This document shows, piece after piece, positions 33,340-58,671 of a stretch of 64,000 bases of DNA. Made by a program: the position numbers and the translations under genes. Under the pieces are notes generated by a model. That model was not told where the DNA came from. It was given only the letters and a program-made list of their open reading frames with translations, and made no database searches. The first letter of the stretch is position 1, and every line of letters starts with the position of its first letter. Origin of the DNA: a virus (taxonomy: Duplodnaviria > Caudoviricetes); IMG/VR virus record IMGVR_UViG_3300006155_000002; one strand, given 5' to 3'.

Positions 33340-33640
33340 GCAGAAGAATTTTAAGTGTATCTGCATAGTGCACTCCGTTTGGCCAACAGGTTTTAAGATA
33401 CCCATGATACAATAGCTGTAGGACAGCAGGGTCAAGCTCTCAAACTCCTGGTTGAGCCGCAAGGCTGCTTCATAGAAAGTCCGTCCCCCTGAGCCGAAAG
33501 TTAGCTGCAAACTCATTAGCTGTTTGCCGGGAATGGAGCCGCCCTTTTAGCAGTGAGGGCTATCGCATTGGCGCGCCCCGGAATGATTCTAATACGCGAG
33601 GTTGCGGATGCTCCGGTTATCATGGGTATCTCAAAGCCTG
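33340..33640 (+). ncRNA. IS110 bridge RNA (left non-coding end)
   Basis: Contains CAAACTCCT and GAAAG matching target flanks, and ATACG matching the donor; boundaries approximate. Confidence 0.7.
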
Positions 33641-33675
33641 CTGGTCTGAAATTCCCACACAGGGAGGTGAAAACT

Positions 33676-34899
33676 GTGAACCCACTATTTGTAGGCATTG
33701 ACGTGAGCAGCAAAAACAATGTTACCTACCTGATGAAGCCGGACGGCAGCAAGCACAGCAGTTTTTCCGTGCAAAACAACCTGGGCGGTGCTAAACTGAT
33801 GTCAGAGAAGATTGTGTCGGCGCTGGAGGCCATGCGGCTCAGCGATGTGGTGATTGGCCTGGAGGCTACGTCCATCTATGGGGACGGCCTGGTCTGTGCC
33901 CTCCGAGAAGACGGGCGGCTGGGGCGATATCAGCGGAAGATCCATGTGCTCAATCCCAAGCAGGTCAGGAAATTCAAAGACTCTTATCCAGACCTGCCCA
34001 AGAATGACTGGGTGGACGCCTTTGTCATCGCCGACCATCTCCGCTTCGGCAGGATCGGCAAGGAGGTCTACATGGACGATTACCGCTACAAATCCCTGCA
34101 AACCCTCACTAGGGCCAGATTTGACGTTGTGCAGAACCTGACACGAGAGAAGCAGCACTTCGCCAATTACCTGTTCCTCAAATGTTCCGGCATGGCCCAG
34201 GACAAGGACATTGCCAATTCCAGCGCCACTACCATTGCGCTGATGGAGCGGTTTGAAACGGCGGACGAACTGGCCTACGCCGATTTGGATGAGTTGACCA
34301 GGTTCATTAGTGAAACCGGGCGCAACTTTGCAGACCCGGCAGCGAAAGCAAAGGCTATCCAAGCCGCTGCCAAAAACTCCTATCGTCTGCCCACTATGGT
34401 GAATTGTTCTGTGAACCAGGCGATGGCTGTTTCTATCGCAACGATGCGAGCCCTGGAAAAGCAGATCAAAATCCTGGACAAATCCATTGAGCAGCAGTTT
34501 CAAATCATCCCCAACACCCTGACCTCTGTCCCCGGCATCGGAAAGGTCTACTCCGCCGGTATCATTGCCGAGATCGGTGACATCCGCCGATTTAACTCCC
34601 AGGCGTCCGTTGCCAAATACGCCGGCCTTGTTTGGACACAGCACCAGTCCGGCGACTTCGAGGCCCAGCACACCAAACTCATCAAATCCGGCAACCGCTA
34701 TCTCCGTTACTACCTGCTGGAAGCCGCCAACTCTGTGAGAAGATGCGACTCTGAGTTCCGGCGCTACTATGACCTCAAATTCAAGGAGGTCAATCAGTTC
34801 CAGCATAAACGCGCACTCGCTTTAACTGCCAGAAAACTGGTTCGGTTGGTCTATCGGCTGCTGATGGACAACCGCCTATATATCCCGCCGGAGGGCTGA
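33676..34899 (+). CDS. IS110 DEDD transposase/recombinase
   Basis: VGIDVS, LEAT, KNDWVDA, SVPGIG, QSG; GTG after GGAGGTG. Confidence 0.95.
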   Translation: MNPLFVGIDVSSKNNVTYLMKPDGSKHSSFSVQNNLGGAKLMSEKIVSALEAMRLSDVVIGLEATSIYGDGLVCALREDGRLGRYQRKIHVLNPKQVRKFKDSYPDLPKNDWVDAFVIADHLRFGRIGKEVYMDDYRYKSLQTLTRARFDVVQNLTREKQHFANYLFLKCSGMAQDKDIANSSATTIALMERFETADELAYADLDELTRFISETGRNFADPAAKAKAIQAAAKNSYRLPTMVNCSVNQAMAVSIATMRALEKQIKILDKSIEQQFQIIPNTLTSVPGIGKVYSAGIIAEIGDIRRFNSQASVAKYAGLVWTQHQSGDFEAQHTKLIKSGNRYLRYYLLEAANSVRRCDSEFRRYYDLKFKEVNQFQHKRALALTARKLVRLVYRLLMDNRLYIPPEG

Positions 34900-35377: not shown

Positions 35378-36115
35378 TTACGGTACAAAATGCGGCATAG
35401 GAAGGAGCTTGTGCCGATTGCGGGCGTGCAGCTCCTGGATTTTGTAGTCGATATCCTTGTCGCCACACGTCCCTTCCTCGATGAAAGTGTCAAGCTGCGC
35501 ATATGTAAAGCCAAGGTTGTCCTCATCGGTCTTGTCACACAGACCATCAGCTGGGGTCTTATCGACAAGTCCCTTTGGAATCGGAAGCTCATACCCAATC
35601 TGCCGCACCTCGTGAACCATGAGATTGGCAAGTGGGCTAAAGTCCCCAGCACTGTCACCGAACTTGGTGGAGTAACCAACGTAATCCTCGGACATATTGC
35701 AGGTGTTGGCAACCCGTCCGCCATTCGGCAGGGACTGGGCGACAGCATAGAGCGTCGCCATGCGAATTCTGGCAGGCAGATTGATATTTGCCTGCTCTGA
35801 TAATGGCCGGAAACCTTCATGAATAACCTGCTGAAGACAGAACAATGGATATCCGATCTCGATAAGAGATGGATTGATTCCTAAACAATCCGTCACTGTA
35901 TAACTGTCATCAATATCCTCCTGCACATTATTTGGCATAAGAACACCGACAACCCGATCTTTGCCGAGCGCTTCGACACACAGGGCGGCGACCACCGTAC
36001 TGTCCTTGCCACCAGAAATGCCTACAACAGCACTGCACTTTGGGCCGTTTTGAGCAAAATAGTCACGAATCCACTGAACAATTTCATTCTTCGTTTTCTT
36101 TGGGTCAGAAAGCAT
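35378..36115 (-). CDS. nadE: NH3-dependent NAD+ synthetase
   Basis: GISGGKDS, NLPARIRM, GYSTKFGD, PADGL. Confidence 0.92.
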   Translation of the reverse strand: MLSDPKKTKNEIVQWIRDYFAQNGPKCSAVVGISGGKDSTVVAALCVEALGKDRVVGVLMPNNVQEDIDDSYTVTDCLGINPSLIEIGYPLFCLQQVIHEGFRPLSEQANINLPARIRMATLYAVAQSLPNGGRVANTCNMSEDYVGYSTKFGDSAGDFSPLANLMVHEVRQIGYELPIPKGLVDKTPADGLCDKTDEDNLGFTYAQLDTFIEEGTCGDKDIDYKIQELHARNRHKLLPMPHFVP

Positions 36116-36599
36116 TACTATACCTCTTTTTCCATAGTTCTACTGTGTACTGCTGACCAAGAACTTGATCAATTAGACCATACACAATATTCCAGTCTCC
36201 ACCGGCGAGACCGCAGCCAATCTTATATGGCATGGCAATCGCAGAACCGGCAGGAACAATGTGTTTGAGCTTTTCAAGGCAGTATTCAAAAGCCTTATAG
36301 TCCGTGTAGCATTGACCATCATATCCGTACCTGTCTTGAGCGAACATATTGACGATGGTTCTCAAACCAGTTTCGGTTCGCTCATCCTTGCAGTAGACGT
36401 GCTGGATGCGGCCAAGCAACTCACTTGGGTTGCTCTTCTCTCGATTGTAAGCAAGCCGATAGCGCTCATACGCCAGCGGGTACAGCTCACGAATCTGTTT
36501 GGCAACACCGCTCCCCATCTTGCCACGGCAATTTACTTGGTGGCAAATGGTAGGGGCGGTTGTTTGGAACAGGTCTCCATCAATGACTTTGATTGCCAT
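36105..36599 (-). CDS. macro domain protein (ADP-ribose processing)
   Basis: GDLF, HQVNC..MGSGVA, PYKIGCGLAGGDW. Confidence 0.88.
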   Translation of the reverse strand: MAIKVIDGDLFQTTAPTICHQVNCRGKMGSGVAKQIRELYPLAYERYRLAYNREKSNPSELLGRIQHVYCKDERTETGLRTIVNMFAQDRYGYDGQCYTDYKAFEYCLEKLKHIVPAGSAIAMPYKIGCGLAGGDWNIVYGLIDQVLGQQYTVELWKKRYSNAF

Positions 36600-38086
36600 C
36601 AGAACCGGCCTCCATGGAGATTCTGGCGCACTTCATCCAGCGTAAACTTCTTGATGATATCACCATTCTTGAACACGGTCTGAAGCTCATTGTTCTCCTG
36701 AGCCTCGGCCCAAGTCAGGCCATCCTCGTAGGTGTAGTTGTCGCCGTCCTTGACCACACGGCAACAGCCCATCTGGGATTTCTTAAAGTGGCCGGTGTCG
36801 GTTTTGGGGTTCTTGAAAATCATGATGGGTTTGCCGTCAGCGTCCTCTGCATAGGTGGCCTTCACGGCGATACCGAAGGTATCACGGGTATATGGAGCAT
36901 AGGACTTCTGTTCAGCGTCCATTGTCTCAAGACATTGCATGGAGAAGGAGCCAACACCCAGCGCCACGTTGTTGATAGCAAACCCATTGTTCTCCAGAAT
37001 CTGATAGACCTGCTGGCAACGCTGCGGCGTGATGCTGTCGCCATACAGCGCCTTGACATGAGAGTCCAAAACCTTGAACCCCTTACTGTTCACAGTGCCG
37101 CCAAAGATATCCCACAGGCGGAACACGGTCTCGGTCACAACCTGAACTGGGTCACCGCTGTCGCCACGGATGGAGATGCACCCGTCATGTGCCAGAATCT
37201 CATCCTTGAGTTGCGGCAGGATGTTGTCCACCAGATTCCAGTAGTCATAGCTGTCGCTGACCATAGAGAAACTCTGGTGTGGATAGATTTCAGTCAGCAG
37301 ACGGCGGATATGGGTAATCTCATCGCCATCAATGGCAAAGTTGGAGCACATAACGCTATGTTCGGTGGACAGAGCGCCGTATGCAACTGGCTCATGCACA
37401 CAATCGCAGTCGTAGTTATCCTCCAGCCAAAGAATGGCAGGGACGGTGGCCGTATTCAGGAAACTGAGGCAGAAAGCGGCGGAGCTCTTGGTGGCGCTTT
37501 CCACACTCTCCTGACCGCGCATAGAAAAATCGCCAAGGAGCCGTGCCCGAACCACACTGTCATCACAGGTGCGCTCGGCGTACTCATTGACGATTTGACG
37601 GTAGCGATAACCCACCTCGGCGGAAACCTGGGTGTGCCACATAGTGCAGGAAAGCATGGTCTCAATGGAGTTGACCAGCCACACGAAGTCCGGGTGAGTG
37701 TTGGAAATTTCAATTTGAGGCACCTTGATATTGGTGCGGGTTCCCTCCGGCACCGCCCGAATCTCCAGAGGCAGATAGCCGAGGTTGTGCAGAGCTTTCA
37801 GCCGCTGGATGCCAACGCCGTCTGTGTTAATAGTAGAGTTGAGAACACGCTTGTACTCATGCATCACATTTTCCCAATCCTCTACAAAGAAATTGATATT
37901 GAATACGTCGATAAGGTATTCTTTGATGAATGACTGAAGGCCAAACATCGTTACCTTATCAGTGTCGTCCAGCCGCGTCATGCGCGGCGTGTAGTAGGAC
38001 ACCATCTTGGTCAAAGTCTGCGGATACTGCTCTGCGTGGGCCGTCTTGTAGAAATCCAGGCAGAGTAGGGGATTGTAGTAAATCAT
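36599..38086 (-). CDS. nicotinamide/nicotinate phosphoribosyltransferase family (NAMPT/Namat-like)
   Basis: DFYKTAH, DFSMRG, TEHSVM, VSDSYD, RGDSGDP, GVGS, KKS. Confidence 0.9.
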   Translation of the reverse strand: MIYYNPLLCLDFYKTAHAEQYPQTLTKMVSYYTPRMTRLDDTDKVTMFGLQSFIKEYLIDVFNINFFVEDWENVMHEYKRVLNSTINTDGVGIQRLKALHNLGYLPLEIRAVPEGTRTNIKVPQIEISNTHPDFVWLVNSIETMLSCTMWHTQVSAEVGYRYRQIVNEYAERTCDDSVVRARLLGDFSMRGQESVESATKSSAAFCLSFLNTATVPAILWLEDNYDCDCVHEPVAYGALSTEHSVMCSNFAIDGDEITHIRRLLTEIYPHQSFSMVSDSYDYWNLVDNILPQLKDEILAHDGCISIRGDSGDPVQVVTETVFRLWDIFGGTVNSKGFKVLDSHVKALYGDSITPQRCQQVYQILENNGFAINNVALGVGSFSMQCLETMDAEQKSYAPYTRDTFGIAVKATYAEDADGKPIMIFKNPKTDTGHFKKSQMGCCRVVKDGDNYTYEDGLTWAEAQENNELQTVFKNGDIIKKFTLDEVRQNLHGGRF

Positions 38087-38097
38087 ATTACTCCCTC

Positions 38098-38901
38098 CTA
38101 AATAACAGTTATCTTGTCGTGCTCACCACGATAGATGCTGTCTGTCGTGAAAACGTGCTGAATCATACCATCTGTCAACACAGAACCTTTGAAGATGGTG
38201 TTCTCACAGTGTGTGACATATAGGTAAATCGTTTTGGCGCCAGCATTTTTCAAAGCAGCGGCCGTATGTGTAAATGTCCCGCCACGGGAACAGATATCGT
38301 CCACAATCAGAATTGTGCGGCCATCCACCTTCTCAGGTGTAGTCAGTTCCAGACGTTCAATCTGGCCAGTTCTCCAGTCCCGATGTTTAATACCAAAGAT
38401 ATACTCGACTTCCATCAGTTCCGAGTACCTCTTGGCAGCACCCTCGTCTGGGTAGCAGAGCAAGAGGTCGTCTGCACCGATGGTGTCGATTGCTTCTTGG
38501 ATGAACTCTTTCGGCTGAACAACGAGCACATTGTTGATAAGTGCTGTTGATACATTGGAGTGCGGGTCAAGCACGACCACACGCTCGAAGCAAAGCTCGT
38601 TGATGAAGTTAGCAAACCACTTCAACGTGAATACTTCGTCCTTATTCTTTACTCTGTCCATCCTGGCATTTGGGATGTATGGCATATAGAGATAAATAGC
38701 GGCATCACTGCCAGCAACAGAACGGATGTGGTTCACCAGATACCACAACAAAATGCACTCAACATCTCCGTCATACTGCCAATCGATTTCATACCGCTCC
38801 CAGTCCAAACGGTTAATGCTCTCGTCTATGTTAAAGCGAAAGGATGATGTATTGTCGGGAAATCGGGTGAACTCCACGGTTTTCCCATTCACCAAAATCA
38901 T
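38098..38901 (-). CDS. ribose-phosphate pyrophosphokinase-like (Adps-like)
   Basis: PYIPNARMDR, DPHS, YPDEGA, IVDDICSRGGT. Confidence 0.88.
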   Translation of the reverse strand: MILVNGKTVEFTRFPDNTSSFRFNIDESINRLDWERYEIDWQYDGDVECILLWYLVNHIRSVAGSDAAIYLYMPYIPNARMDRVKNKDEVFTLKWFANFINELCFERVVVLDPHSNVSTALINNVLVVQPKEFIQEAIDTIGADDLLLCYPDEGAAKRYSELMEVEYIFGIKHRDWRTGQIERLELTTPEKVDGRTILIVDDICSRGGTFTHTAAALKNAGAKTIYLYVTHCENTIFKGSVLTDGMIQHVFTTDSIYRGEHDKITVI

Positions 38902-38904
38902 CTC

Positions 38905-39459
38905 TTATCCCTCCCAGTTCTCAATATTGATCTGACACATCTTCATGGCCTTGAGAGCGTTTTTGTGGCTTTCCGGCGTCGCACCAGCGCAGCAGGATGC
39001 GTCTACCGTTATCTTGACCTCCGGCAGAAACGCCTTGATGAGAAGAGCGTTGGAGATAACGCAGATATCGGTGCAGAGGCCGACCAGAATGACCTCGTTG
39101 ATACAGCTACCCGTCTCGTTCTTGAGACGAAGATATTCGCCGAGCGCAGCGGAACCAAACGTGTTCTTTTTGAATGTCGCCGCCCACTTCTTTTGGCCGA
39201 GTTCATCTGCCAAAACATCAGGCAGGCACCATCCGTGCTCGCTTGTGATACAGTGTTCAACCGGAAGATACTGCCCCTCCTGGGTTTTCAGATAGTTTTT
39301 GCCATGAGAGTCGAGTGTTACAACAATCTCGCCGCTAAACTCCTTCACCTTCTCAATCACGTTCGGAAGAATGGCTTTTGCCTCCGTAGTTCCAAGAGAA
39401 CCGTCAATGAAATCGTTTTGCATATCTACAACCACTAAAACTTTCACAGTCCTTTTCAC
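38905..39459 (-). CDS. pncA: nicotinamidase/isochorismatase family
   Basis: VVDMQNDF, DSH, HC, GLCTDICV. Confidence 0.85.
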   Translation of the reverse strand: MKRTVKVLVVVDMQNDFIDGSLGTTEAKAILPNVIEKVKEFSGEIVVTLDSHGKNYLKTQEGQYLPVEHCITSEHGWCLPDVLADELGQKKWAATFKKNTFGSAALGEYLRLKNETGSCINEVILVGLCTDICVISNALLIKAFLPEVKITVDASCCAGATPESHKNALKAMKMCQINIENWEG

Positions 39460-39464
39460 TCCTT

Positions 39465-39968
39465 TTATTCTTTGTAGTATTCTTCATGCCGATATTTGGC
39501 GTAAATACAGGTGTCCGTCCCAACATTATCGTTCCCTGTCAGAACAAAACTTTCATCAGAAAACAAAAACCGCAACAGGCGGCTACGGCTTCTGAGAATA
39601 CCTTCCACAAATTTTAGCAGGTCTCCCTCTTCTGCATGATCCACATAAGCATTTTCGCACAACGAAATTGATTTGCCATAGTATTCAGCCTGCTCAAAGT
39701 CACAATCAACTCCTACATCGCTGAGAATTGCGAATATTTTGTTCTTCGCAAATTCTACATCATCTCTGTTATATAGACAGAGCATTGCCGCATATAGATA
39801 AGCTGCTTTGTCCTCTGGTGTTTCCAGCTTTCTTTCCTCCCATCCGAAATTTTGACAGTGGAAACAAAGCTTCTCTGGGTACATTTCTGTGTTTCTGCTT
39901 TTAGTGATACAGATGCTATGTGTGCTGCTGGAATTGGTTTCAAATACTAAATGTCGCACTTGCCGCAT
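39465..39968 (-). CDS. FETNSSSTHS-motif protein (paralog 3)
   Basis: MRQVRHLVFETNSSSTHSI; YVDH. Confidence 0.75.
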   Translation of the reverse strand: MRQVRHLVFETNSSSTHSICITKSRNTEMYPEKLCFHCQNFGWEERKLETPEDKAAYLYAAMLCLYNRDDVEFAKNKIFAILSDVGVDCDFEQAEYYGKSISLCENAYVDHAEEGDLLKFVEGILRSRSRLLRFLFSDESFVLTGNDNVGTDTCIYAKYRHEEYYKE

Positions 39969-39994
39969 TTTGTCTTTCTCCTTCTATATCAATT

Positions 39995-40211
39995 ACTCTG
40001 TAATCTGTCATTACAGATGTCGGGCTATGTTCGGGCCGACATCTGTGATGATACCCAGGAGACGAGCGGAGCGGCGCGACTTCGTCAGGCGCCAGCCTGA
40101 CTTCGTCGCGCTCGCGCAGCGAGGAAACCAGCAAATTCATACTCTGATTTACAATACAGAGTGTCTGCTTTATGTATGGTTTGGTTATAACAGACAATTA
40201 CATTACAGAGT
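39995..40211 (-). ncRNA. retron-like msr/msd cassette 5
   Basis: IR ACTCTGTAAT/ATTACAGAGT, G at stem end (40201), shared hairpin 40142-40161, two strong msd hairpins. Confidence 0.8.
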
Positions 40212-40411
40212 TTTGCAGCCTTGAAGAAGCGATGAAAGGGCGAAGCTCCAGAGGGATCATTTATGATCCGAATGGAGCTTCTACCTTTCGAGCTTCTTTG
40301 ATATTGCTGAGCGAGTTACTCGCTCAGCAGATTAAACCTACCATTACGAACCTCCGATTTACAATACGGAGTGCCCTATGTATGACGACTACGGGCTAAC
40401 ACGCTGCAAAA
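40211..40411 (-). ncRNA. retron-like msr/msd cassette 4
   Basis: IR TTTTGCAGC/GCTGCAAAA, G at 40402, covaried hairpin CTCCG-ATTTACAATA-CGGAG. Confidence 0.8.
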
Positions 40412-40414
40412 AAG

Positions 40415-41041
40415 TTATTGTTCTTGGAAGGAGTACATGACTTCTGTCCACTTTCCCGGTCTCAAATATGTGATATAGACCTTGTCAAACGCCCAGGAGC
40501 CGACGTCGTTTATTCCTTTTTCGCCACGATAGTCTCCTCCGCCCAACCCATTTCCGACACAAGTCAAAAGCGGCAGTGGATTGATGCACCAAAGTTCTGA
40601 AGATCCATACCGCCTACCCAATGAGTTTTGTTTCACATACTGCTCCATATCAACATAGCATTGTTTTGTGCAGTTCACCAGATAACATTCGGTGTGATCC
40701 ATATCGAGATGAAACTGCGGCTCGTCCGGATCGATATATGACACATAAATGCCATCCGATTCGTCTCCCCACACGCTCCGATATCTTTTCTGAAATTCAC
40801 TGGCGCTGGTAATAAAACCATCGCCGAGATTGCATTTATTCACGACAGCGGAGTCTGAATAATCACCTAACCATGCCAAACGTGTCGGATTGTCCTTTAT
40901 TTCGTTGAGCACTGCATTTACAAAATTATTGCCGATCCATGAGTGCTCCATCAGTTTAAGCCCATTATCAAAGGCATGAGAATATGCTGCCCTCTCTGTG
41001 CCATCCTCATGAATCAACAACGGCTTATAATATTGCCCCAT
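40415..41041 (-). CDS. phage hypothetical protein
   Basis: MGQYY...GLKLMEHSW...PLPLLT..GNGLGGGDY. Confidence 0.75.
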   Translation of the reverse strand: MGQYYKPLLIHEDGTERAAYSHAFDNGLKLMEHSWIGNNFVNAVLNEIKDNPTRLAWLGDYSDSAVVNKCNLGDGFITSASEFQKRYRSVWGDESDGIYVSYIDPDEPQFHLDMDHTECYLVNCTKQCYVDMEQYVKQNSLGRRYGSSELWCINPLPLLTCVGNGLGGGDYRGEKGINDVGSWAFDKVYITYLRPGKWTEVMYSFQEQ

Positions 41042-43900: not shown

Positions 43901-44006
43901 GATGGGAGAGGGTGGATTCGAACCACCGATACTGAAAGGCCACATGGCGCCTCAAAGCCAAACAGCGAAGGCTTAATCCTCCTGCTTACCTCTTGCATAC
44001 TCTCCC
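43901..44006 (-). ncRNA. aberrant tRNA-like RNA
   Basis: Acceptor GGGAGAG/CTCTCCC, D-arm and GGTTCGAATCC T-arm intact; central region non-canonical. Confidence 0.6.
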
Positions 44007-44160: not shown

Positions 44161-44515
44161 CTTCGTTGTTCATGATCTGCATTACATATGATGTCTTGAT
44201 GCGGGCTCTTGAAGACCGGCGAAGAGTCGTCGCTCGCCTTGATGCCTGTGGGCTTCAGGGTGGTCCGCTGGTATGCTTGTTTGATATTTCGTGAAAACCG
44301 TTGAGCCAGGCCGGGTTCCGGCTTTGTGCTCCTTGGCTGCTTCGTGATGGTTCGGGAGATGACCTCTGCTTAGGAATCTACGGCCGCCGCGGCAGCAGTG
44401 CGCCGGCCTGGCAGGCTGCCTCCTGACTCTTCCTTCATCCCAGCCATTCGTTACTCTGATTTACAATACAGAGCTTTAAGCCTTTCGACTTAAAAATTCA
44501 TCACATACAACGAAG
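44161..44515 (-). ncRNA. retron-like msr/msd cassette 3
   Basis: IR CTTCGTTGT/ACAACGAAG extended by 6 bp with G-U pairs, G at 44499, shared hairpin 44454-44473. Confidence 0.78.
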
Positions 44516-44516
44516 T

Positions 44517-45059
44517 CTATTTTATATGAACAATGTATTTTTTGTCTATCATCCGGAACCCTACAGATTCATACTGCTCCCATATCAATTCCCAGTTGAT
44601 GTAGTCCATCATGGCACTGTTAGCTATCGCATCGAGCATCTCATCGGTAATCCCATAGTCGAATGGAACATTGAGCTGTGTCGCAAGATAGTATCCGGCC
44701 GTTTCTTTTGCGTTTAATGGCAGATCAACGTCGGATATATCACCGAACATGAATTCGTTCTCTTTCAGCTTTCTGACGAAATCCTCGTTAAACAAATTAC
44801 CAGAAGGAGCGGCCTCAAGTAGGACTTGCAGATATTCTTCCGTCATACCCGGATTTTCGCTGTTAATTTCATCGAGAATATCGTTCAGTTCCTTGATACT
44901 GTCATTCCTGGTAATTGAGATGGTTGGCGAGGTGGACAGAATGATATAGTCGTAGTGGTTTTCAAGTTCTGCCCGAAGATTACATGGTAATGTCAGGATC
45001 TTGGATTCCCCGCAATCCAAATCACTGACTTCAACAGTCAATTGAATCATATCAACCAC
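44517..45059 (-). CDS. acidic protein, possibly ArdA-like antirestriction
   Basis: Very acidic; LTLP, SIKELN, DYINWE resemble ArdA segments (by eye only). Confidence 0.45.
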   Translation of the reverse strand: MVDMIQLTVEVSDLDCGESKILTLPCNLRAELENHYDYIILSTSPTISITRNDSIKELNDILDEINSENPGMTEEYLQVLLEAAPSGNLFNEDFVRKLKENEFMFGDISDVDLPLNAKETAGYYLATQLNVPFDYGITDEMLDAIANSAMMDYINWELIWEQYESVGFRMIDKKYIVHIK

Positions 45060-45072
45060 TTCCTTTTCTGCA

Positions 45073-45425
45073 AAAACTTTGTAATCTACAGTAGCGTGCG
45101 CGCGTGTCCCGGAATTCGTTGTTGATTGTGGTGTCCTTTACCTTCGCTAAGCGGCTTTAGTGCTCTCCGGTTTTCTTTGGATGAGTCCAGCCTCTTTTGG
45201 CCTGAGTGGCCTGGTTTCCTGTAGCGACTCTGCTTGGTTTCCTTTCGTTTCTGTCGGGTTCGTCTGGCGTTCTGCTGTCGGAAGCCTCGTGGTCGTTTGC
45301 TCAGGATCTGTACCTGTACCTGCTGCGCCCTAATGTTCGCGCTACCTCCACCCGGCCATGCGTTACTCTGATTTACAATACAGAGCGTCTCTTGATTGAC
45401 AAAAGACTATCCATTACAAAGTTTT
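45073..45425 (-). ncRNA. retron-like msr/msd cassette 2
   Basis: Perfect 13-bp IR AAAACTTTGTAAT/ATTACAAAGTTTT, G at 45412, shared hairpin 45366-45385. Confidence 0.85.
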
Positions 45426-45431
45426 CATTTG

Positions 45432-46571
45432 TTATGCGGCCAAATCATCATGAATGGTGCGCATTACGTCCGTGTGGTACTTGTCATTGTTGAATTTGAT
45501 GACCTCGTCCACATATCCCCCTTCCACCATGCGATAGTAGTTGATAAGGCCACGCAAAACTTGAACATCATGCAGCTCCCACATGATTCCGTTTCGGCGG
45601 TCAAGAATGTAGTTGCTAATCATTGCACGGAACCGTTGCTTATTCTTATAACCGATAGTAATCTCATTGTCTTTGTTGAGCATCAGACCGAGATTCCAGT
45701 TACTCCCCGCCCTTGATCCATATCTGGTCTTTTCATCTTTGATTTTGAACGGAGCGTAAAATTCGGCCAGCGTATTGTTAATAAATCCAATAACGCTGTT
45801 ATGGTCGAACTCCTGCCGGCTTGAGATGATGGAGTCATCGGCATATCTGGTATACACAAACGACTTCCCATCAAAATTCCGCAGGGCGTTGTAGATTTTA
45901 TGGTCGATTGGGATCATCATTAGATTGGTGAGCATGGGAGAAATCGGCGTGCCCTGTGGCAAACCGCCATGCAGGAAACACAGGCTGAGTGCCTTATCCA
46001 ATGCATTTCTACCGCGTTCACACTTTACGATCTCGCTAAACGGAAAGATAAGAGATAGCGAGTATCGAAGAAACTCTTGCGTTGTGCTGCCAAAGAAGTT
46101 AGAGAAGTCCGTTTTCAGGAACCAACGGCTCCCGTTTTGCTGATGGCGCTTGATGGCGTCGATGGTAGACCGCCCTGGAACATAGGCAAATGCTGCCGTA
46201 TGATACTTGGCAAACATCTTTTTCTCAAACAGCGTTTTCAAATTACGGAGCGCTGTCATCAGTTCCTGTTCCGGCGCGTTGATTTCACGCAAGCCGCCGG
46301 ACTTCTTTGGGATGTAGAAGGTGTCGTACAGCTTTTCTCTGGGAACATCAAAGAGACTGTCGTTCTGCTCACAGAACCTCTCCAGATCAGATGTCATTTC
46401 CGCAAAATCGAAGCGCTCCAGGAACTGTGGCTTAAGATAGCGTGAGAAATATGTCCGGGTGTTGGATTCGTTCGATGAGATCATAGACCGCATATTGACC
46501 TCGCCAGAGATAATCTCCTCAAATGTGATCTGATGATAGGACGGCGATTGCATAACAGTTATGTATGGCAT
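45432..46571 (-). CDS. retron-type reverse transcriptase
   Basis: KKSGGLREINAP, AIKRH (region X), DFSNFF, LPQGTPISP, YTRYADD, NLG (region Y); start MPYIT after GGAGG. Confidence 0.92.
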   Translation of the reverse strand: MPYITVMQSPSYHQITFEEIISGEVNMRSMISSNESNTRTYFSRYLKPQFLERFDFAEMTSDLERFCEQNDSLFDVPREKLYDTFYIPKKSGGLREINAPEQELMTALRNLKTLFEKKMFAKYHTAAFAYVPGRSTIDAIKRHQQNGSRWFLKTDFSNFFGSTTQEFLRYSLSLIFPFSEIVKCERGRNALDKALSLCFLHGGLPQGTPISPMLTNLMMIPIDHKIYNALRNFDGKSFVYTRYADDSIISSRQEFDHNSVIGFINNTLAEFYAPFKIKDEKTRYGSRAGSNWNLGLMLNKDNEITIGYKNKQRFRAMISNYILDRRNGIMWELHDVQVLRGLINYYRMVEGGYVDEVIKFNNDKYHTDVMRTIHDDLAA

Positions 46572-46586
46572 AAAAAATACCTCCTC

Positions 46587-46936
46587 GCCTGTATTCAAAT
46601 ATACAGTAGTGTCTTCTGGGCGGTGATCCTTAATGGCGTCTGAAGGCAGCAGTTTATCCACTGGCCATACCGAGTTCGTTTGGGCTTTTATTTATTTCCC
46701 TTCAGGAAGTACGGGTTTGTGCTTGTTGTACGGCCTTGTCGGTATGGATTCGGATATTGCACTATGCTTGTGCTTGCTCTGGTATGAGGGGGTATGAGCT
46801 TCGACTCGTGGGCCTCTTGCTTACTAATAAGAGCTTGAGCTGCTCCCTGAGCTACCTCCCGCCGGCCATTCGTTACTCTGATTTACAATACAGAGCACCC
46901 TCAACCCTGATGAGCTGAGAGTAATACAATACAGAC
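46587..46936 (-). ncRNA. retron-like msr/msd cassette 1 (canonical position upstream of RT)
   Basis: Minus-strand stem GUCUGUAUU/AAUACAGGC, G at 46927, shared hairpin 46876-46895. Confidence 0.8.
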
Positions 46937-46988: not shown

Positions 46989-47660
46989 TTAAAATGCGTC
47001 CACCTCAAAGCTAAACGCGTCCACAAGAATCATTTTGCGGAGCTGTTCGCCTTTTACGAAGTTGATGAAATTCGCTACGCCATAAGCAACAATCGTACGC
47101 ACCGTCGGAACGACAGAAAGTGTGATGTTGCAGGCGGAGACAGGAGTTGCTTCCTTCGCCTCATCATGGGAAAAGCCCATGCTATTGATGAAGCTTTCCA
47201 CCATCTTCTCGTCATTCCAGGCAGCGGCATAGTGCTGTGCATCCGTCAGCCGCATCCGGAAATCAAACATCCCCTTGACAAACGTGTTATCCTTGCAGGC
47301 GGTGGCGATTTCCCGGCGAAGGTCAATGTTATCCACCGCCAGGAAAACGTAGCCAGAGAGCCGTTGTCCAGTCCAGCCTTCCCTGATGAGTTTCAGATCG
47401 CTGGCACACTCCGGGTTGATCTCGGCGAGATACTCGGCCAACGCATCGACTTTGGCCTTGCCGATATCCGTGTGCCGGAACATCTGATTGGCGATGTTAT
47501 GCGGCTCCACGTTATCGAAATCGTACAGCGTGATCTTAGTAATGCCGAACCGCACCAGATTCTCAGCGACCGTGGAACCAATAGCCCCACAGCCGATGAT
47601 GTGAATCCGTGAGTCGAGCATATCCGGCTTGAAGAATTCGTAAGATTTTGCCAAGTCCAT
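46989..47660 (-). CDS. ThiF/E1-like adenylyltransferase
   Basis: IIGCGAIGS, DFDNVEPHNIANQ, GKAKV, LAVDN, SAC. Confidence 0.9.
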   Translation of the reverse strand: MDLAKSYEFFKPDMLDSRIHIIGCGAIGSTVAENLVRFGITKITLYDFDNVEPHNIANQMFRHTDIGKAKVDALAEYLAEINPECASDLKLIREGWTGQRLSGYVFLAVDNIDLRREIATACKDNTFVKGMFDFRMRLTDAQHYAAAWNDEKMVESFINSMGFSHDEAKEATPVSACNITLSVVPTVRTIVAYGVANFINFVKGEQLRKMILVDAFSFEVDAF

Positions 47661-47683
47661 GATTTGTCTCTCCTTTCTCACTC

Positions 47684-48559
47684 TCAGGAGTAAACCCTGT
47701 AGTCATCGCCGCCAACTCCGTCGTATTCCTGAAAGGAACGACCGATATCGGCGCCCCCTTTGTTCTTCGGCTTACTTTTGACACCAACGGGAGCGACATT
47801 AGCCTGGGTCGGAGTCGAGGCTGCTTGTGTGCTGGTCTGCACCGTCTGGGCGATGGACGTAACCTTCCCTTGCTGGTAACTGCCCTGGTAGCCCCCCTGA
47901 TAGCTGCCCTGGTAGGTTTTTCTGGTGACAATTGCCTTTGCATCGTTGAGGAAAGCCTGGAGATTTACGCCCTCGTCGCCAATATATACGTCCACGTCCG
48001 CCGTCTCGTACAGCGTGTTGTTCTTCAAATCAAAGATGCGGACGAAGTGCTCGTACCGCTTGTTCCAGATCATGAAGATGTAGAAATCCTCATCGGTGAT
48101 CTGCTCCAGGATCTTTTCCTGGTGGGTGGTGTCCACACCGGACGGAGACACGCTCATATTCACATGGCTGTGTCCCTGCATCCGAATGTTGTTAAACACG
48201 TCATCCTCGAATGAATAGAGCCACGTCTGATAAGCGTCCTGGTCGGTATTGACTGTCGCCCCGGTGACTACCTGCGGATACACCAGGATATCGGTGATGT
48301 AGAAGATAGAGGGATTCTCCTCGTCACGATGGACTACACCGTGCCACGCAACCTCGTCGCTGAACTGCTGGATAAGGCCGTTCATTTTGGCGAAGGCAAT
48401 GGTAGACAGGTAGATGGTAGCCCTGTCGTTGTCCTCCCACTTAAACGTCCGGCTGTACTCCAACTTGCCGTCGAACATCTTGACGGACCTGACTTTTTCC
48501 AGGAACTCTTCCTGAATCTTCGCAAGCAGCTCGTCTGTGAGCTTGATAGGCTTACTCAT
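47684..48559 (-). CDS. JAB/MPN-like metallopeptidase
   Basis: EVAW...HSHVNMSVSPSGVD (E...HxH...S..D). Confidence 0.82.
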   Translation of the reverse strand: MSKPIKLTDELLAKIQEEFLEKVRSVKMFDGKLEYSRTFKWEDNDRATIYLSTIAFAKMNGLIQQFSDEVAWHGVVHRDEENPSIFYITDILVYPQVVTGATVNTDQDAYQTWLYSFEDDVFNNIRMQGHSHVNMSVSPSGVDTTHQEKILEQITDEDFYIFMIWNKRYEHFVRIFDLKNNTLYETADVDVYIGDEGVNLQAFLNDAKAIVTRKTYQGSYQGGYQGSYQQGKVTSIAQTVQTSTQAASTPTQANVAPVGVKSKPKNKGGADIGRSFQEYDGVGGDDYRVYS

Positions 48560-50042
48560 TGCTTTCCTCCTCTTTTTCCTCCGCCTTGACATCTTGTTCC
48601 TCCAACCATAACACGGCCTCCAACGGCGTCTTGGTAGAGCCGTCGGGCATTTCGATGACCTTCCCGATCCTGGTCGAAAACAGCTCCTGCGTCATACGCC
48701 CAGTGGTCATGCTTTCCAGGACGTTGACACTTTTTGCGGACTGGACGCAAGCCGCTACAGCGCCAACATAGTCCCGGTTTCTCATGGATTGGCGAATTGT
48801 CCGCTCGTTGTCGCCCAAACAGTGGAATCCTTGGATATGCTGGTTGGGCGTATGGTCCATGATAATCTCCCGTGGGAAGTCGTATCCGTCTACACCGCGA
48901 TATCTTCCGTCGTCAAAGTTCAGCCGATATGCGGCGCAGATACGAATCTTCAAAGTTTCCTTCAGGAAGATTTCTGTCATCAGCCGTTTGATCCGTTCGT
49001 ACGTCATCTCGCTATGACCAACCGACTGGTAGAAGTAGCTGCGTCTGTTGTTGATGATGGACTCTGCGGCATCCGGATCAAAGTTTGCAACCGTAGTGGT
49101 AACGACAAACTCGATTTCACCGTTGTTTACCCGCATCAAATGAAGGGCGTTGTTGCAGAGGAAGAACTCCAGAAGCTCGCTGCTCTCCTCGCCGCCGCCG
49201 TTCTCGATCTTGTCCTTCAGTCCGCACTCCTGAGTTTTGAGATCATTCATCTGCTGATAGAGGGAAGCGAACTGTCGCTCCAGCTCCTGGAAATTGCGAT
49301 CCATTCCAACAATCTGACTGCGGATATTCTGAAGCTTACGGCGGTCAAACTGCGTCTCAAATCCAGTCAGCTTACTGCGAATGATTTGTGACCGGAAGTC
49401 AAACCGTTTGGCGAACTCCTGGATCTTGGCCTCGTAGTCGGGGGCGTACCGCTTGATGAGCGTTGCAGCAAGCTCCGTTTCCTCTGTGGTGGCCGGATTC
49501 TCGTTGAAATACCAGGGAAAGTACCTGGGAATCAGAGACGCCAGAGTGTGCCATCGTTTTAGATTCATCCGCTCCGTAAAGATGATCGTATTGCGAAGTT
49601 CCTCATTCATATAGATCTTGGCACGGAACCTCGCATTCTTCTCAATCCAGGCGGATAAATCTTCCACCAGCCGATACCCGGAAATGGTTTTCGGCACACC
49701 CTCTGCAAGCCTCTCGAAGCAGGCCGTATTGCTCTCGTCATCATTCTCGAAGGAATGAATGAGCAGTTCTCCACGGCTATCGCCGTAAAGAATATCCATG
49801 CCGCTCATAAAAGCCCTGACACAGTCTCTCGCTGACGAACCAGTCAACTGCCCAGAGCTGTAGTCCGAGTGGGTGTGCCGCAATTTGATTGACTCCTCTT
49901 TCGGAACCCTGCTGTACAGCAAAGCCCTTAAGGTTGCGACGAACGATTCATCGGAGCGGAAATTGCATCCGTCGATGTTATGAAACAAACTCGACGCGAC
50001 CTCATTGGCGAGAGTCAGACCAGTGATTTCTTTTGAGAACAT
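48552..50042 (-). CDS. coiled-coil protein with putative C-terminal E2-like domain
   Basis: PNQHIQGFHCLG resembles the UBC HPNI..G..CLG active site; operon context. Confidence 0.6.
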   Translation of the reverse strand: MFSKEITGLTLANEVASSLFHNIDGCNFRSDESFVATLRALLYSRVPKEESIKLRHTHSDYSSGQLTGSSARDCVRAFMSGMDILYGDSRGELLIHSFENDDESNTACFERLAEGVPKTISGYRLVEDLSAWIEKNARFRAKIYMNEELRNTIIFTERMNLKRWHTLASLIPRYFPWYFNENPATTEETELAATLIKRYAPDYEAKIQEFAKRFDFRSQIIRSKLTGFETQFDRRKLQNIRSQIVGMDRNFQELERQFASLYQQMNDLKTQECGLKDKIENGGGEESSELLEFFLCNNALHLMRVNNGEIEFVVTTTVANFDPDAAESIINNRRSYFYQSVGHSEMTYERIKRLMTEIFLKETLKIRICAAYRLNFDDGRYRGVDGYDFPREIIMDHTPNQHIQGFHCLGDNERTIRQSMRNRDYVGAVAACVQSAKSVNVLESMTTGRMTQELFSTRIGKVIEMPDGSTKTPLEAVLWLEEQDVKAEEKEEESNE

Positions 50043-56936: not shown

Positions 56937-58671
56937 CTCGTATAATAAGATTTGCAGAAGAATTTTAAGTGTATCTGCATAGTGCACTCCGTTTGGCCAA
57001 CAGGTTTTAAGATACCCATGATACAATAGCTGTAGGACAGCAGGGTCAAGCTCTCAAACTCCTGGTTGAGCCGCAAGGCTGCTTCATAGAAAGTCCGTCC
57101 CCCTGAGCCGAAAGTTAGCTGCAAACTCATTAGCTGTTTGCCGGGAATGGAGCCGCCCTTTTAGCAGTGAGGGCTATCGCATTGGCGCGCCCCGGAATGA
57201 TTCTAATACGCGAGGTTGCGGATGCTCCGGTTATCATGGGTATCTCAAAGCCTGCTGGTCTGAAATTCCCACACAGGGAGGTGAAAACTGTGAACCCACT
57301 ATTTGTAGGCATTGACGTGAGCAGCAAAAACAATGTTACCTACCTGATGAAGCCGGACGGCAGCAAGCACAGCAGTTTTTCCGTGCAAAACAACCTGGGC
57401 GGTGCTAAACTGATGTCAGAGAAGATTGTGTCGGCGCTGGAGGCCATGCGGCTCAGCGATGTGGTGATTGGCCTGGAGGCTACGTCCATCTATGGGGACG
57501 GCCTGGTCTGTGCCCTCCGAGAAGACGGGCGGCTGGGGCGATATCAGCGGAAGATCCATGTGCTCAATCCCAAGCAGGTCAGGAAATTCAAAGACTCTTA
57601 TCCAGACCTGCCCAAGAATGACTGGGTGGACGCCTTTGTCATCGCCGACCATCTCCGCTTCGGCAGGATCGGCAAGGAGGTCTACATGGACGATTACCGC
57701 TACAAATCCCTGCAAACCCTCACTAGGGCCAGATTTGACGTTGTGCAGAACCTGACACGAGAGAAGCAGCACTTCGCCAATTACCTGTTCCTCAAATGTT
57801 CCGGCATGGCCCAGGACAAGGACATTGCCAATTCCAGCGCCACTACCATTGCGCTGATGGAGCGGTTTGAAACGGCGGACGAACTGGCCTACGCCGATTT
57901 GGATGAGTTGACCAGGTTCATTAGTGAAACCGGGCGCAACTTTGCAGACCCGGCAGCGAAAGCAAAGGCTATCCAAGCCGCTGCCAAAAACTCCTATCGT
58001 CTGCCCACTATGGTGAATTGTTCTGTGAACCAGGCGATGGCTGTTTCTATCGCAACGATGCGAGCCCTGGAAAAGCAGATCAAAATCCTGGACAAATCCA
58101 TTGAGCAGCAGTTTCAAATCATCCCCAACACCCTGACCTCTGTCCCCGGCATCGGAAAGGTCTACTCCGCCGGTATCATTGCCGAGATCGGTGACATCCG
58201 CCGATTTAACTCCCAGGCGTCCGTTGCCAAATACGCCGGCCTTGTTTGGACACAGCACCAGTCCGGCGACTTCGAGGCCCAGCACACCAAACTCATCAAA
58301 TCCGGCAACCGCTATCTCCGTTACTACCTGCTGGAAGCCGCCAACTCTGTGAGAAGATGCGACTCTGAGTTCCGGCGCTACTATGACCTCAAATTCAAGG
58401 AGGTCAATCAGTTCCAGCATAAACGCGCACTCGCTTTAACTGCCAGAAAACTGGTTCGGTTGGTCTATCGGCTGCTGATGGACAACCGCCTATATATCCC
58501 GCCGGAGGGCTGAGCAAGCTGCTCGCTGCTCTGACGAACAGGCCCTGTTTCAAAAATTTGCAGGGACAGGGCCTGGGTTGGTGTTGCCTTTTTTCTGCCT
58601 CCTTAACTCTTTTGGATCAATTTCCTCTGAATTTTTTGTGCATCACCTACTTGACTTCATACCATTAGACT
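56937..58671 (+). mobile_element. IS110-family element, copy 2
   Basis: Identical to copy 1; CT cores. Confidence 0.93.
57290..58513 (+). CDS. IS110 transposase/recombinase
   Basis: Identical to 33676-34899. Confidence 0.95.
   Translation: MNPLFVGIDVSSKNNVTYLMKPDGSKHSSFSVQNNLGGAKLMSEKIVSALEAMRLSDVVIGLEATSIYGDGLVCALREDGRLGRYQRKIHVLNPKQVRKFKDSYPDLPKNDWVDAFVIADHLRFGRIGKEVYMDDYRYKSLQTLTRARFDVVQNLTREKQHFANYLFLKCSGMAQDKDIANSSATTIALMERFETADELAYADLDELTRFISETGRNFADPAAKAKAIQAAAKNSYRLPTMVNCSVNQAMAVSIATMRALEKQIKILDKSIEQQFQIIPNTLTSVPGIGKVYSAGIIAEIGDIRRFNSQASVAKYAGLVWTQHQSGDFEAQHTKLIKSGNRYLRYYLLEAANSVRRCDSEFRRYYDLKFKEVNQFQHKRALALTARKLVRLVYRLLMDNRLYIPPEG

What the first reader, a model, noticed from the sequence alone, without database searches (positions are those of the whole stretch)
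39995..40411. Two short, back-to-back orphan cassettes with highly structured two-hairpin msd
Seen: cassettes 4 and 5 abut at 40211, about 5 kb from the RT, and are only ~200 nt each. Their predicted DNA forms two hairpins each. Cassette 5: TCATTACAGATGTCGG...CCGACATCTGTGATGA, and GCGCGAC-TTC-GTCAGGC/GCCTGAC-TTC-GTCGCGC with a symmetric TTC/TTC internal loop. Cassette 4: a long bulged stem plus TGCTGAGCGAG/CTCGCTCAGCA. Inference: an array-like expansion of trans-acting templates whose mismatched or bubbled DNA hairpins could mimic substrates of nucleases, mismatch repair or DNA sensors.
Basis: partly seen in the sequence, partly recalled or inferred. Interest (0 to 1): 0.75.

Follow-up and report, generated by a model that had tools for sequence, protein, structure and literature searches.

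The report
Tandem satellite retron RNAs in phage
Two adjacent ~200-nt units, 5 kb from a phage-borne retron reverse transcriptase, have every sequence hallmark of retron template RNAs; they are conserved with compensatory changes in related gut phages, so one enzyme probably makes several different small hairpin DNAs, which has so far been described only for engineered retron arrays.

Summary
Window 39995-40411 holds two minus-strand units (C4 40211-40411, 201 nt; C5 39995-40211, 217 nt) that share base 40211.

Each unit has:
- its own closing inverted repeat (9 and 10 bp), followed directly by an invariant G;
- a variable hairpin;
- a hairpin whose apical 10-mer is identical in all five cassettes of the window;
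- a two-hairpin msd.

The only RT in the window (45432-46571, minus) is retron-type.

Six diverged versions of the pair exist in viral and metagenome contigs. The structure is kept by compensatory changes (C5: 16 of 57 pairs; 0 of 500 shuffles reach this). G-U pairs favour the RT-sense strand. The shared hairpin loop is constant within a genome but differs between genomes, which argues for use in trans by the single RT.

Newly found here:
- C4's long hairpin carries double-stranded GATC in every lineage, in a GATC-poor genome.
- An ArdA-like anti-restriction protein lies between cassettes 2 and 3.
- An NAD+-salvage block follows C5.

Best reading: natural satellite retron templates that yield hairpin msDNAs, which probably act as baits or decoys. 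Transcription, reverse transcription and function are untested. I class it as a new variant of a known kind. The scan has noted related multi-template and Ubl-linked retrons on other DNA.

The parts
40211..40411 (-). Cassette C4: complete retron-like msr-msd unit (201 nt)
   Evidence: a1/a2 of 9 bp. RNA fold -86.5 kcal/mol, z -9.1. Model R1 hit of 50.4 bits. Orthologues in L001, L002, L066, L117 and L125; 13 of 40 consensus pairs show compensatory change.
39995..40211 (-). Cassette C5: complete retron-like msr-msd unit (217 nt)
   Evidence: a1/a2 of 10 bp. RNA fold -86.4 kcal/mol, z -6.0. R1 hit of 54.8 bits. 92% of cells paired, 16 of 57 pairs compensatory, 0 of 500 shuffles as good.
40402..40411 (-). 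C4 a1 arm (40411-40403) plus candidate priming G (40402)
   Evidence: This G is invariant in 22 of 22 aligned cassettes. Its position directly 3' of a1 matches the retron priming G. Read from sequence.
40201..40211 (-). C5 a1 arm (40211-40202) plus candidate priming G (40201)
   Evidence: Same column of alignment A2. Unpaired G next to the closing helix in the fold.
40352..40371 (-). C4 conserved msr hairpin SL2 (CTCCG / TATTGTAAAT / CGGAG)
   Evidence: The stem carries a compensatory change relative to the other four copies, while the loop is identical in all five.
40141..40162 (-). C5 conserved msr hairpin SL2
40224..40298 (-). C4 long bulged msd hairpin; double-stranded GATC next to the apical tetraloop (plus-strand GATC at 40255-40258 and 40265-40268)
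   Evidence: Folds. GATC density in C4 msd is 25 per kb against 3.3 per kb background, and GATC is present in 5 of 5 lineages.
40305..40329 (-). C4 short perfect msd hairpin (11 bp, triloop)
   Evidence: L002 lacks it; the other four lineages have a hairpin here, of different sequence.
40072..40115 (-). C5 G+C-rich msd hairpin with a symmetric 3x3 internal loop (GAA/GAA on the RNA, TTC/TTC on the cDNA)
   Evidence: The loop is kept in W, L066 and L113, near-kept in L002, 4x4 in L117, and fully paired in L001.
40008..40052 (-). C5 second msd hairpin; its 3' arm repeats the a1 sequence CTGTAAT
   Evidence: One C-A mismatch on the RNA strand becomes a G-T wobble on the cDNA strand (read from sequence).
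45432..46571 (-). Retron-type reverse transcriptase, the only RT in the window. The likely start is the ATG at 46571 after GAGGAGG; the longest ORF starts at GTG 46661.
   Evidence: PADLOC RT_II-A 2e-47. NCBIfam retron_St85 6e-53, 180 bits, below the cutoff of 235. Best PDB matches are the retron Ec83 and Ec78 RTs. YADD is present. No second RT found.
46587..46936 (-). Cassette C1, directly upstream of the RT (350 nt)
45073..45425 (-). Cassette C2, directly downstream of the RT (353 nt)
   Evidence: 13-bp a1/a2.
44161..44515 (-). Cassette C3 (355 nt)
44517..45059 (-). ArdA-like protein (P0002) between C2 and C3
   Evidence: AF2 model pLDDT 85.4. Foldseek gives ArdA 2W82 as the single significant hit, E 3.2e-4, TM 0.54/0.58. 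An Atlas feature lead also points to ArdA clusters.

Best explanation
C4 and C5 are two tandem, complete retron non-coding RNA genes (msr-msd) on the minus strand. They are satellite members of a set of five served by the single retron-type RT 5 kb away.

Proposed mechanism:
1. They are transcribed leftward with the surrounding minus-strand genes. They fill the gap between a 208-aa gene and a 167-aa gene, with no terminator-like site between them.
2. Each unit folds on its own a1/a2 helix.
3. The RT recognises the hairpin shared by all five cassettes.
4. The RT primes on the 2'-OH of the invariant G next to a1 (40402 for C4, 40201 for C5).
5. It copies the msd into an msDNA of roughly 110-125 nt that folds into two hairpins.

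What is shown: the sequence architecture, its conservation with compensatory change, the strand, the linkage to a retron-type RT, and the genome-specific shared hairpin.

What is inferred: transcription, trans use and cDNA synthesis.

Most likely role (inference, about 0.4 on its own): the msDNAs are multicopy DNA baits or decoys for DNA-directed host enzymes, as part of a phage counter-defence arsenal. C4 displays double-stranded GATC. C5 displays a G+C-rich stem with a bubble.
For: (1) Architecture. Both units have a1/a2 of 9-10 bp, a G directly after a1 that is invariant in 22 of 22 cassettes, two msr hairpins and an msd. These are the criteria used to call retron ncRNAs in PMC10849725.

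(2) The RT is retron-type and is the only RT in the window.

(3) Conservation.
- The five-cassette layout, including the distal pair, is kept in relatives with 84% RT identity (L001, L002).
- Six diverged versions of the pair exist.
- For C5, 92% of cells are paired and 16 of 57 pairs are compensatory. No shuffle out of 500 matches this, and slid controls pair at 31-38%.
- For C4, 13 of 40 pairs are compensatory.

(4) Strand.
- All 132 covariance-model hits and all 98 nhmmer hits in 62 sources lie on the RT strand.
- There are 21 G-U cells against 2 A-C cells.

(5) Trans use.
- The SL2 apical 10-mer differs by 1.3 positions on average within a genome and by 5.2 between genomes. The rest of each cassette is unalignable within a genome.
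- Engineered tandem ncRNA arrays with one RT do work (10.1101/2023.07.17.549397).

(6) Role.
- GATC is 7.6-fold denser in the C4 msd than in the background, and is double-stranded in every lineage.
- The genome itself is GATC-poor (O/E 0.56), and relatives hold 0-1 GATC in 21 kb.
- In Retron-Sen2, an msDNA GATC is the site read by phage Dam (10.64898/2026.10.13.758329).
- An ArdA-like DNA mimic sits between C2 and C3.
- Prs-like, NAMPT-like, nicotinamidase-like and NadE genes follow C5. This resembles the NARP1 counter-defence pathway.
Against:
- C4 and C5 are 5 kb from the RT, outside the roughly 500-bp range in which retron ncRNAs are normally sought.
- No classical retron effector was recognised next to them.
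- From memory, retron RTs carry NAxxH and VTG motifs. Here the corresponding places read NAPEQ and NLG.
- The NCBIfam score is below the family cutoff.
- The GATC sites may be inherited rather than independently selected, and single-lineage shuffle P values are only 0.07-0.12 for lineages with one site.
- The bubble in C5 is not universal.
- The gene-neighbour argument for counter-defence is guilt by association in a syntenic phage family.
Confidence: 0.6

Rival explanations
1. The cassettes are genuine retron templates, but the msDNAs are sensors rather than decoys. They hold an effector in check, and their modification (for example GATC methylation or nuclease attack by a competing phage) releases it. 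This would give the resident phage superinfection exclusion. The effector would be the Ubl/E2-like/JAB/E1 operon that abuts the retron.
For: - The E1, JAB-like and 496-aa genes lie directly upstream of the RT in essentially all roughly 60 related loci that have upstream sequence, across 46-84% RT identity.
- All characterised retrons work as sensor plus effector (abstracts).
- In Retron-Sen2 a single msDNA GATC is the trigger site, and the closest RT family models are St85/II-A.
Against: - The conserved adjacency may simply be synteny in one phage family.
- No independent occurrence of the pairing was examined.
- No integrase or lysogeny gene was seen in the window.
- The neighbours of C4/C5 and the gene inside the retron locus look like counter-defence genes (ArdA-like, NAD+ salvage), not toxins.
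Confidence: 0.2
2. The units act as RNAs only. They may be structured leaders or processing and stability elements for the downstream 167-aa gene and the NAD+ operon, or RNA sponges or regulators of the RT, and are not copied into DNA under normal conditions (as reported for type VI retrons before infection).
For: - G-U pairs are frequent also in the msd helices, so the RNA fold is at least as well kept as the DNA fold.
- The GAA/GAA loop is a purine-rich RNA-type internal loop.
- C5 ends 27 nt before the start codon of the next gene.
- Type VI retrons make no msDNA in uninfected cells (10.1101/2025.10.22.683967, abstract).
Against: - The full retron layout, including a1/a2 and the G, is kept in each unit, which an RNA leader would not need.
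- One C5 stem position is a C-A mismatch as RNA but a G-T wobble as cDNA.
- Identical SL2 loops point to RT binding.
Confidence: 0.1
3. C4 and C5 are decaying duplicate cassettes with no present function.
For: - The number of cassettes at the site varies (one in L004 and L005).
- msd sequences diverge fast, and the first C4 hairpin is missing in L002.
Against: - Every functional element is intact in six diverged lineages.
- Helices are kept by compensatory change, and SL2 loops stay identical to those of the RT-adjacent cassettes.
Confidence: 0.05
4. They are not retron RNAs at all, but another kind of palindromic repeat (REP-like elements, terminators, attC-like sites, or DGR template or target repeats).
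For: They are intergenic, strongly palindromic, and fold equally well on both strands.
Against: - They share a 46-nt block and layout with the cassettes that flank the retron RT.
- They occur only on the RT strand in 62 sources.
- No T-run follows the stems.
- No second copy of any msd exists in the window, so there is no TR/VR pair.
- No Rfam family matches.
Confidence: 0.03

Closest known systems
Retron ncRNA (msr-msd) of clade-1 retrons: type II-A (Retron-Sen2/St85) and type I-A (Ec78/Eco7, Ec83)
   Same: - RT similarity (PADLOC RT_II-A; NCBIfam St85 family; PDB Ec83 and Ec78 RTs).
- a1/a2 closing helix, G after a1, msr hairpins followed by a structured msd.
- A double-stranded GATC in an msd stem near the loop, as in Sen2.
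   Different: - One RT has five different ncRNAs, two of them 5 kb away and back to back.
- The msd has two hairpins instead of one long stem.
- No NDT-like (RcaT) or PtuAB effector was found.
- The RT has a roughly 80-aa N-terminal extension and scores below the family cutoff.
- It is carried by large uncultured gut phage-like contigs.
Engineered retron arrays ('multitrons', Gonzalez-Delgado et al., 10.1101/2023.07.17.549397)
   Same: Several msr-msd units in tandem on one transcript, each with a different msd, are all used by a single RT. This is the same logic as the C4-C5 pair.
   Different: - Those are synthetic, built on Eco1 and carry editing donors.
- These are natural, each unit has its own a1/a2 sequence, and the msd parts are structured hairpins with no homology elsewhere in the window.
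Viral retron-like RTs counted in metagenomes (RTC3, PMC13681634)
   Same: Retron-like RTs are known to occur in viral contigs, many from digestive systems.
   Different: In the passages read, that survey describes only the proteins. It reports no ncRNAs, no multiplicity and no satellite cassettes.
ArdA and other DNA-mimic anti-restriction proteins
   Same: If the decoy reading holds, the principle is the same: offer the host enzyme a harmless DNA-like ligand. An ArdA-like gene lies inside this retron locus.
   Different: Here the mimic would be real DNA made by reverse transcription. No such system has been described in the literature searched.

Membership tests
Retron (RT + msr-msd ncRNA) | Reverse transcriptase of the retron lineage | tested here: met
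   - PADLOC: 75 retron RT models hit, best RT_II-A 2.1e-47.
- Top PDB hits are retron RTs.
- YADD is present.
- The NCBIfam St85 model scores 180 bits, below its cutoff of 235, so this is the lineage, not that exact family.
Retron (RT + msr-msd ncRNA) | NAxxH and VTG signature motifs of retron RTs (recalled from memory) | tested here: inconclusive
   The translation reads INAPEQ and NLGLML at the places I would expect these motifs. I did not align against reference retron RTs column by column.
Retron (RT + msr-msd ncRNA) | ncRNA closed by an a1/a2 inverted repeat of more than about 8 bp (criterion in PMC10849725) | tested here: met
   C4 has 9 bp and C5 has 10 bp, both perfect. The arms covary in orthologues.
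Retron (RT + msr-msd ncRNA) | Priming guanosine near the 5' end, next to a1 | tested here: met
   G40402 and G40201. This column is invariant in 22 of 22 cassettes. Only the sequence position was tested, not the chemistry.
Retron (RT + msr-msd ncRNA) | ncRNA adjacent to the RT (searched within about 500 bp in PMC10849725) | tested here: not met
   C4 and C5 start 5.0 kb downstream of the RT stop. C1 and C2 do meet this criterion.
Retron (RT + msr-msd ncRNA) | Production of branched RNA-DNA msDNA | not testable with these tools
Retron (RT + msr-msd ncRNA) | Associated effector protein | tested here: inconclusive
   - No PADLOC or Pfam retron effector was found in the flanking ORFs.
- A Ubl-type E1/JAB operon is always adjacent to the RT, but a functional link is unproven.
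Type II-A retron (Sen2/St85) | NDT-like (RcaT) effector with a winged-helix domain next to the RT | tested here: not met
   No such domain was found in the ORFs between 38905 and 50042 that were scanned with Pfam, NCBIfam and PADLOC.
Type II-A retron (Sen2/St85) | GATC methylation motif in the msd stem | tested here: met
   Present in C4 (plus strand 40255-40258 and 40265-40268, paired) and in all C4 orthologues. Absent from C5.
Any curated RNA family (Rfam 15) | Match to a covariance model | tested here: not met
   No family matches 39995-40411 or the other cassettes, even at E up to 5.
Diversity-generating retroelement template/variable repeat | A second, near-identical copy of the template inside a target gene | tested here: not met
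   No msd has another match in the 64-kb window beyond chance 12-17-mers.

The most novel reading that the evidence does not exclude
Large gut phages run a natural multiplexed retron as a DNA-decoy factory. One RT copies three to five different template RNAs, some of them placed as satellites among counter-defence genes. The products are distinct multicopy hairpin DNAs that each titrate or misdirect a different DNA-directed host defence. Examples would be GATC-specific restriction or methylation enzymes for C4, and mismatch-, bubble- or end-sensing nucleases for C5. These real-DNA decoys would work alongside an ArdA-like protein DNA mimic encoded in the same locus.
Probability: 0.3. Interest if true: 0.9.

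Novelty: new variant of a known kind. Interest (0 to 1): 0.72.

Why it matters
- Retrons are known as one RT with one ncRNA and an effector, and as bacterial defence systems. A phage-borne retron with several natural templates, some used at a distance, would show that trans-templating and multiplexing are natural, not only engineered.
- It would give a ready-made set of orthogonal-looking a1/a2 pairs that share one RT handle, which is useful for retron arrays.
- It would open the question of what a virus does with multicopy hairpin DNA.
- If the msDNAs are decoys, this would be a new class of counter-defence: nucleic-acid mimics made by reverse transcription.
- The GATC-bearing hairpin in a GATC-avoiding genome makes that idea directly testable.

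Tried and rejected
- No whole genome is held for the window.
- No nucleotide match was found in GenBank phages.
- The promoter and terminator scan gave counts no higher than shuffles and no site between the upstream gene and C4.
- Rfam gave nothing for the cassettes, at gathering or permissive thresholds.
- The AF2 model of the 167-aa gene after C5 was poor (pLDDT 44.5). Its Atlas structural resemblance to Tad2-like proteins (TM 0.67/0.45) therefore stays an untested lead.
- Pfam at E up to 10 did not support ArdA or Tad2 by sequence. Nor did a profile search of the PDB. The ArdA call rests on the fold.
- A motif-like match in L017 at 15718 lies in coding sequence and is chance.
- CGCG looks enriched in the C5 msd (16 per kb against 1.9 per kb), but local G+C content explains most of it (my estimate from the composition), so I do not use it.
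- GACNNNGTC in the C5 hairpin is not kept in L117, so I dropped it as a candidate site.
- The msd parts have no second copy in the window, so recombination-donor and DGR readings were dropped.
- Literature searches for natural multi-ncRNA retrons, phage retron arrays and retron-Ubl links found only engineered arrays and a protein-level census.

Full report
**Observation**

The stretch 39969-40414 is the gap between two minus-strand genes: a 208-aa gene (40415-41041) and a 167-aa gene (39465-39968). Read on the minus strand, it holds two units.
- C4 (40411 to 40211, 201 nt) is closed by TTTTGCAGC and GCTGCAAAA.
- C5 (40211 to 39995, 217 nt) is closed by ACTCTGTAAT and ATTACAGAGT.
- The two units share base 40211.

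- As RNA, C5 gives -86.4 kcal/mol (z -6.0) and C4 gives -86.5 kcal/mol (z -9.1).
- The predicted cDNAs each fold into two hairpins as DNA, with z -6.45 and -10.0.

**What the units are**

A 46-nt block that ends in the hairpin CTCYG-TATTGTAAAT-CRGAG occurs five times in the window, always on the minus strand. The 12-mer core has 5 hits against 0.32 expected.

A covariance model of this block finds exactly these five: 46851-46900, 45341-45390, 44429-44478, 40327-40376 and 40117-40166.

The ORF at 45432-46661 on the minus strand is a retron-type RT.
- PADLOC RT_II-A gives 2e-47.
- NCBIfam retron_St85 gives 6e-53, at 180 bits, below its cutoff of 235.
- The best PDB matches are the retron Ec83 and Ec78 RTs.
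- YADD is present.
- It is the only RT in the window.
- Its real start is probably the ATG at 46571, which follows GAGGAGG. Relatives align only from residue 31.

Cassette C1 (46587-46936) sits directly upstream of the RT and C2 (45073-45425) directly downstream. C3 (44161-44515) follows one gene later. C4 and C5 lie 5 kb further on, beyond seven tRNA genes and a tmRNA gene.

All five cassettes share one plan:
- an a1 arm;
- an invariant G directly after it (22 of 22 aligned cassettes);
- a variable hairpin SL1;
- the conserved hairpin SL2 with a TAACGAATGG-like tail;
- an msd;
- an a2 arm.

These are the features by which retron ncRNAs are recognised in PMC10849725. No Rfam family matches them.

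**Comparative evidence**

The RT has 62 relatives in IMG/VR viral contigs, at 44-84% identity. A further 29 lie in MAG bins from human, goat, sheep, roe deer, horse and rabbit gut samples. These are binned to many unrelated taxa, as expected for phage contigs. The best GenBank phage match is an uncultured human-faecal phage at 42% identity.

Cassette counts in relatives:
- The closest relatives keep the five-cassette layout, including the distal pair (L001, L002).
- L004 has four.
- More distant relatives (about 55% RT identity) usually have three: one upstream of the RT and two in tandem just after it.
- L005 has five.

All 132 covariance-model hits and all 98 nhmmer hits are on the RT strand.

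A pattern scan of metagenome contigs added further copies of the pair. This gives six distinct versions: the window, L001, L002 (nearly identical to L099), L066, L113 (identical to L125 over their overlap) and L117. Their msr parts align, but their msd parts have largely diverged.

Each version still folds in the same way.
- For C5, the consensus structure has 92% of cells paired, and 16 of 57 pairs show changes on both sides. No shuffle out of 500 reaches this, and slid controls pair at 31-38%. The caveats are that there are only six sequences and the structure was derived from the same alignment.
- For C4, 13 of 40 consensus pairs are compensatory. The short first msd hairpin is missing in L002.

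The strand is settled by 21 G-U cells against 2 A-C cells, together with the strand bias of all hits.

At this site L004 and L005 carry a single short two-hairpin cassette, while the others carry the pair. The spacer between C4 and C5 is 5-14 nt in relatives and nil in the window.

**Use in trans**

The apical 10-mer of SL2 is identical in all five cassettes of the window and of L001. In the distant clade it is a different sequence (for example CGCCAAAGGC), again shared by all cassettes of a genome. The mean difference is 1.3 positions within genomes and 5.2 between genomes. Meanwhile a1/a2, SL1 and the msd differ freely within a genome.

This is what a shared protein partner, the one RT, would impose. 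It is an inference, and relatedness among genomes inflates the contrast. Engineered tandem ncRNA arrays with a single RT are functional (10.1101/2023.07.17.549397), so the mechanism is feasible.

**Clues to function**

1. *Two cassette classes.* The window holds two classes.
   - C1-C3 have msd parts of about 270 nt that are U-poor (10-17% U) and weakly structured (-0.23 to -0.29 kcal/mol per nt).
   - C4 and C5 have msd parts of about 125 nt that are almost wholly helical (-0.47 to -0.49 kcal/mol per nt).

2. *GATC in C4.*
   - C4's long hairpin carries a double-stranded GATC next to its tetraloop.
   - All five C4 lineages, and the single L004 cassette, have at least one such site, and up to three.
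   - The density is 25 per kb against 3.3 per kb background. GATC is the only one of the 16 palindromic tetramers that stands out after allowing for local composition.
   - The genome itself avoids GATC (O/E 0.56). Two relatives hold 1 and 0 GATC in 21 kb.
   - In Retron-Sen2, whose RT family is the best named match here, a single msDNA GATC is the site methylated by phage Dam (10.64898/2026.10.13.758329).
   - Shared ancestry of the sites cannot be excluded.

3. *ArdA-like gene.* The gene between C2 and C3 gives a confident AF2 model (pLDDT 85). Its only significant Foldseek match in the PDB is the anti-restriction DNA mimic ArdA (2W82, E 3e-4, TM 0.54/0.58). An independent Atlas feature lead agrees. 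Sequence profiles do not detect it.

4. *NAD+ block.* Directly after C5 come a phage-only 167-aa gene, then a nicotinamidase-like gene, a PRPP-synthetase-like gene, a NAMPT-like gene and an NAD synthase gene. The Prs-like plus NAMPT-like pair resembles the NARP1 counter-defence pathway. I did not test that assignment.

5. *Ubl operon.* The E1, JAB-like and 496-aa genes abut the RT in nearly all relatives.

**Reading**

I commit to the reading that C4 and C5 are satellite retron templates, copied by the distant RT into two small hairpin msDNAs. My odds are about 0.85 for 'retron-type ncRNA genes' and about 0.6 for the whole mechanism including cDNA synthesis in trans.

For the role, I favour multicopy DNA baits or decoys in a counter-defence setting (about 0.4). 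Next comes a sensor arm of a phage-borne exclusion system with the Ubl operon as effector (about 0.2), then an RNA-only role (about 0.1).

On the RNA strand it reads GAA/GAA, so it may be an RNA feature.

**Novelty**

In the held literature I found:
- retron RTs counted in viral contigs, without their RNAs (PMC13681634);
- stand-alone ncRNA-RT cassettes (PMC7736814);
- engineered arrays.

I found no natural retron with several ncRNAs or with satellites at a distance.

The scan itself has noted related cases on other DNA: Ubl-linked phage retrons, a five-cassette retron and an archaeal three-template retron. I treat these as leads only.

I class the finding as a new variant of a known kind.

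Noticed in passing
window 44161-46936: Cassettes C1-C3 form a different class from C4 and C5. Their msd parts are about 270 nt, U-poor on the RNA strand (10-17% U, so the cDNA would be A-poor), and only weakly structured. None has a second copy in the window.
   Followed up: partly
window 44517-45059 (-): An acidic 180-aa protein lies between cassettes C2 and C3. Its AF2 model (pLDDT 85) has ArdA (2W82) as its only significant PDB match. It is likely an anti-restriction DNA mimic embedded in the retron locus, and it is conserved in L001-L005 and several metagenome loci.
   Followed up: yes
window 35378-39968 (-): Directly after C5 come a phage-only 167-aa protein (Atlas structural lead to Tad2-like; AF2 model too poor to test), a nicotinamidase-like protein, a PRPP-synthetase-like protein, a NAMPT-like protein and an NAD synthase. 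This looks like an NAD+ reconstitution (NARP1-like) counter-defence block.
   Followed up: partly
window 46989-50042 (-) and loci L002-L061: A ThiF/E1-like gene, a JAB-like gene and a 496-aa gene lie directly upstream of the RT in essentially every related locus that has upstream sequence (46-84% RT identity). They could be the retron's effector module, or this could simply be conserved synteny.
   Followed up: partly
whole window; CTAG at 34109 and 57723: CTAG is almost absent (2 against 65 expected), and both sites lie in the two copies of a 448-aa transposase gene (33553-34899 and 57167-58513, plus strand). GATC (O/E 0.56) and CGCG (0.51) are also avoided. Relatives L009 and L017 hold 1 and 0 GATC in 21 kb. 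This suggests strong restriction-avoidance signatures and a recently arrived insertion sequence.
   Followed up: partly
window 43903-44006 (-): A tRNA model match of 38.5 bits spans 104 nt. ARAGORN did not call it. It may be a tRNA with an insertion or intron, and it lies just downstream of cassette C3.
   Followed up: no
window 39995-40030 (-): The 3' arm of C5's second msd hairpin repeats the a1 sequence (CTGTAAT). The a2 arm could therefore pair with it instead of with a1, forming a 7-bp hairpin with a GACAG loop. This possible alternative fold is kept in the window, L002 and L066/L113 (with one mismatch in L001), and not in L117.
   Followed up: no
window 46571-46661 (-): The longest RT ORF starts at GTG 46661, but the a2 arm of cassette C1 (46587-46595) and a GAGGAGG site lie inside that extension, and relatives align only from residue 31. 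The RT probably starts at ATG 46571.
   Followed up: partly
window 61085-61160 (-): ARAGORN calls a tRNA-Tyr with anticodon ATA, an unusual unmodified-A wobble anticodon. I did not examine it further.
   Followed up: no
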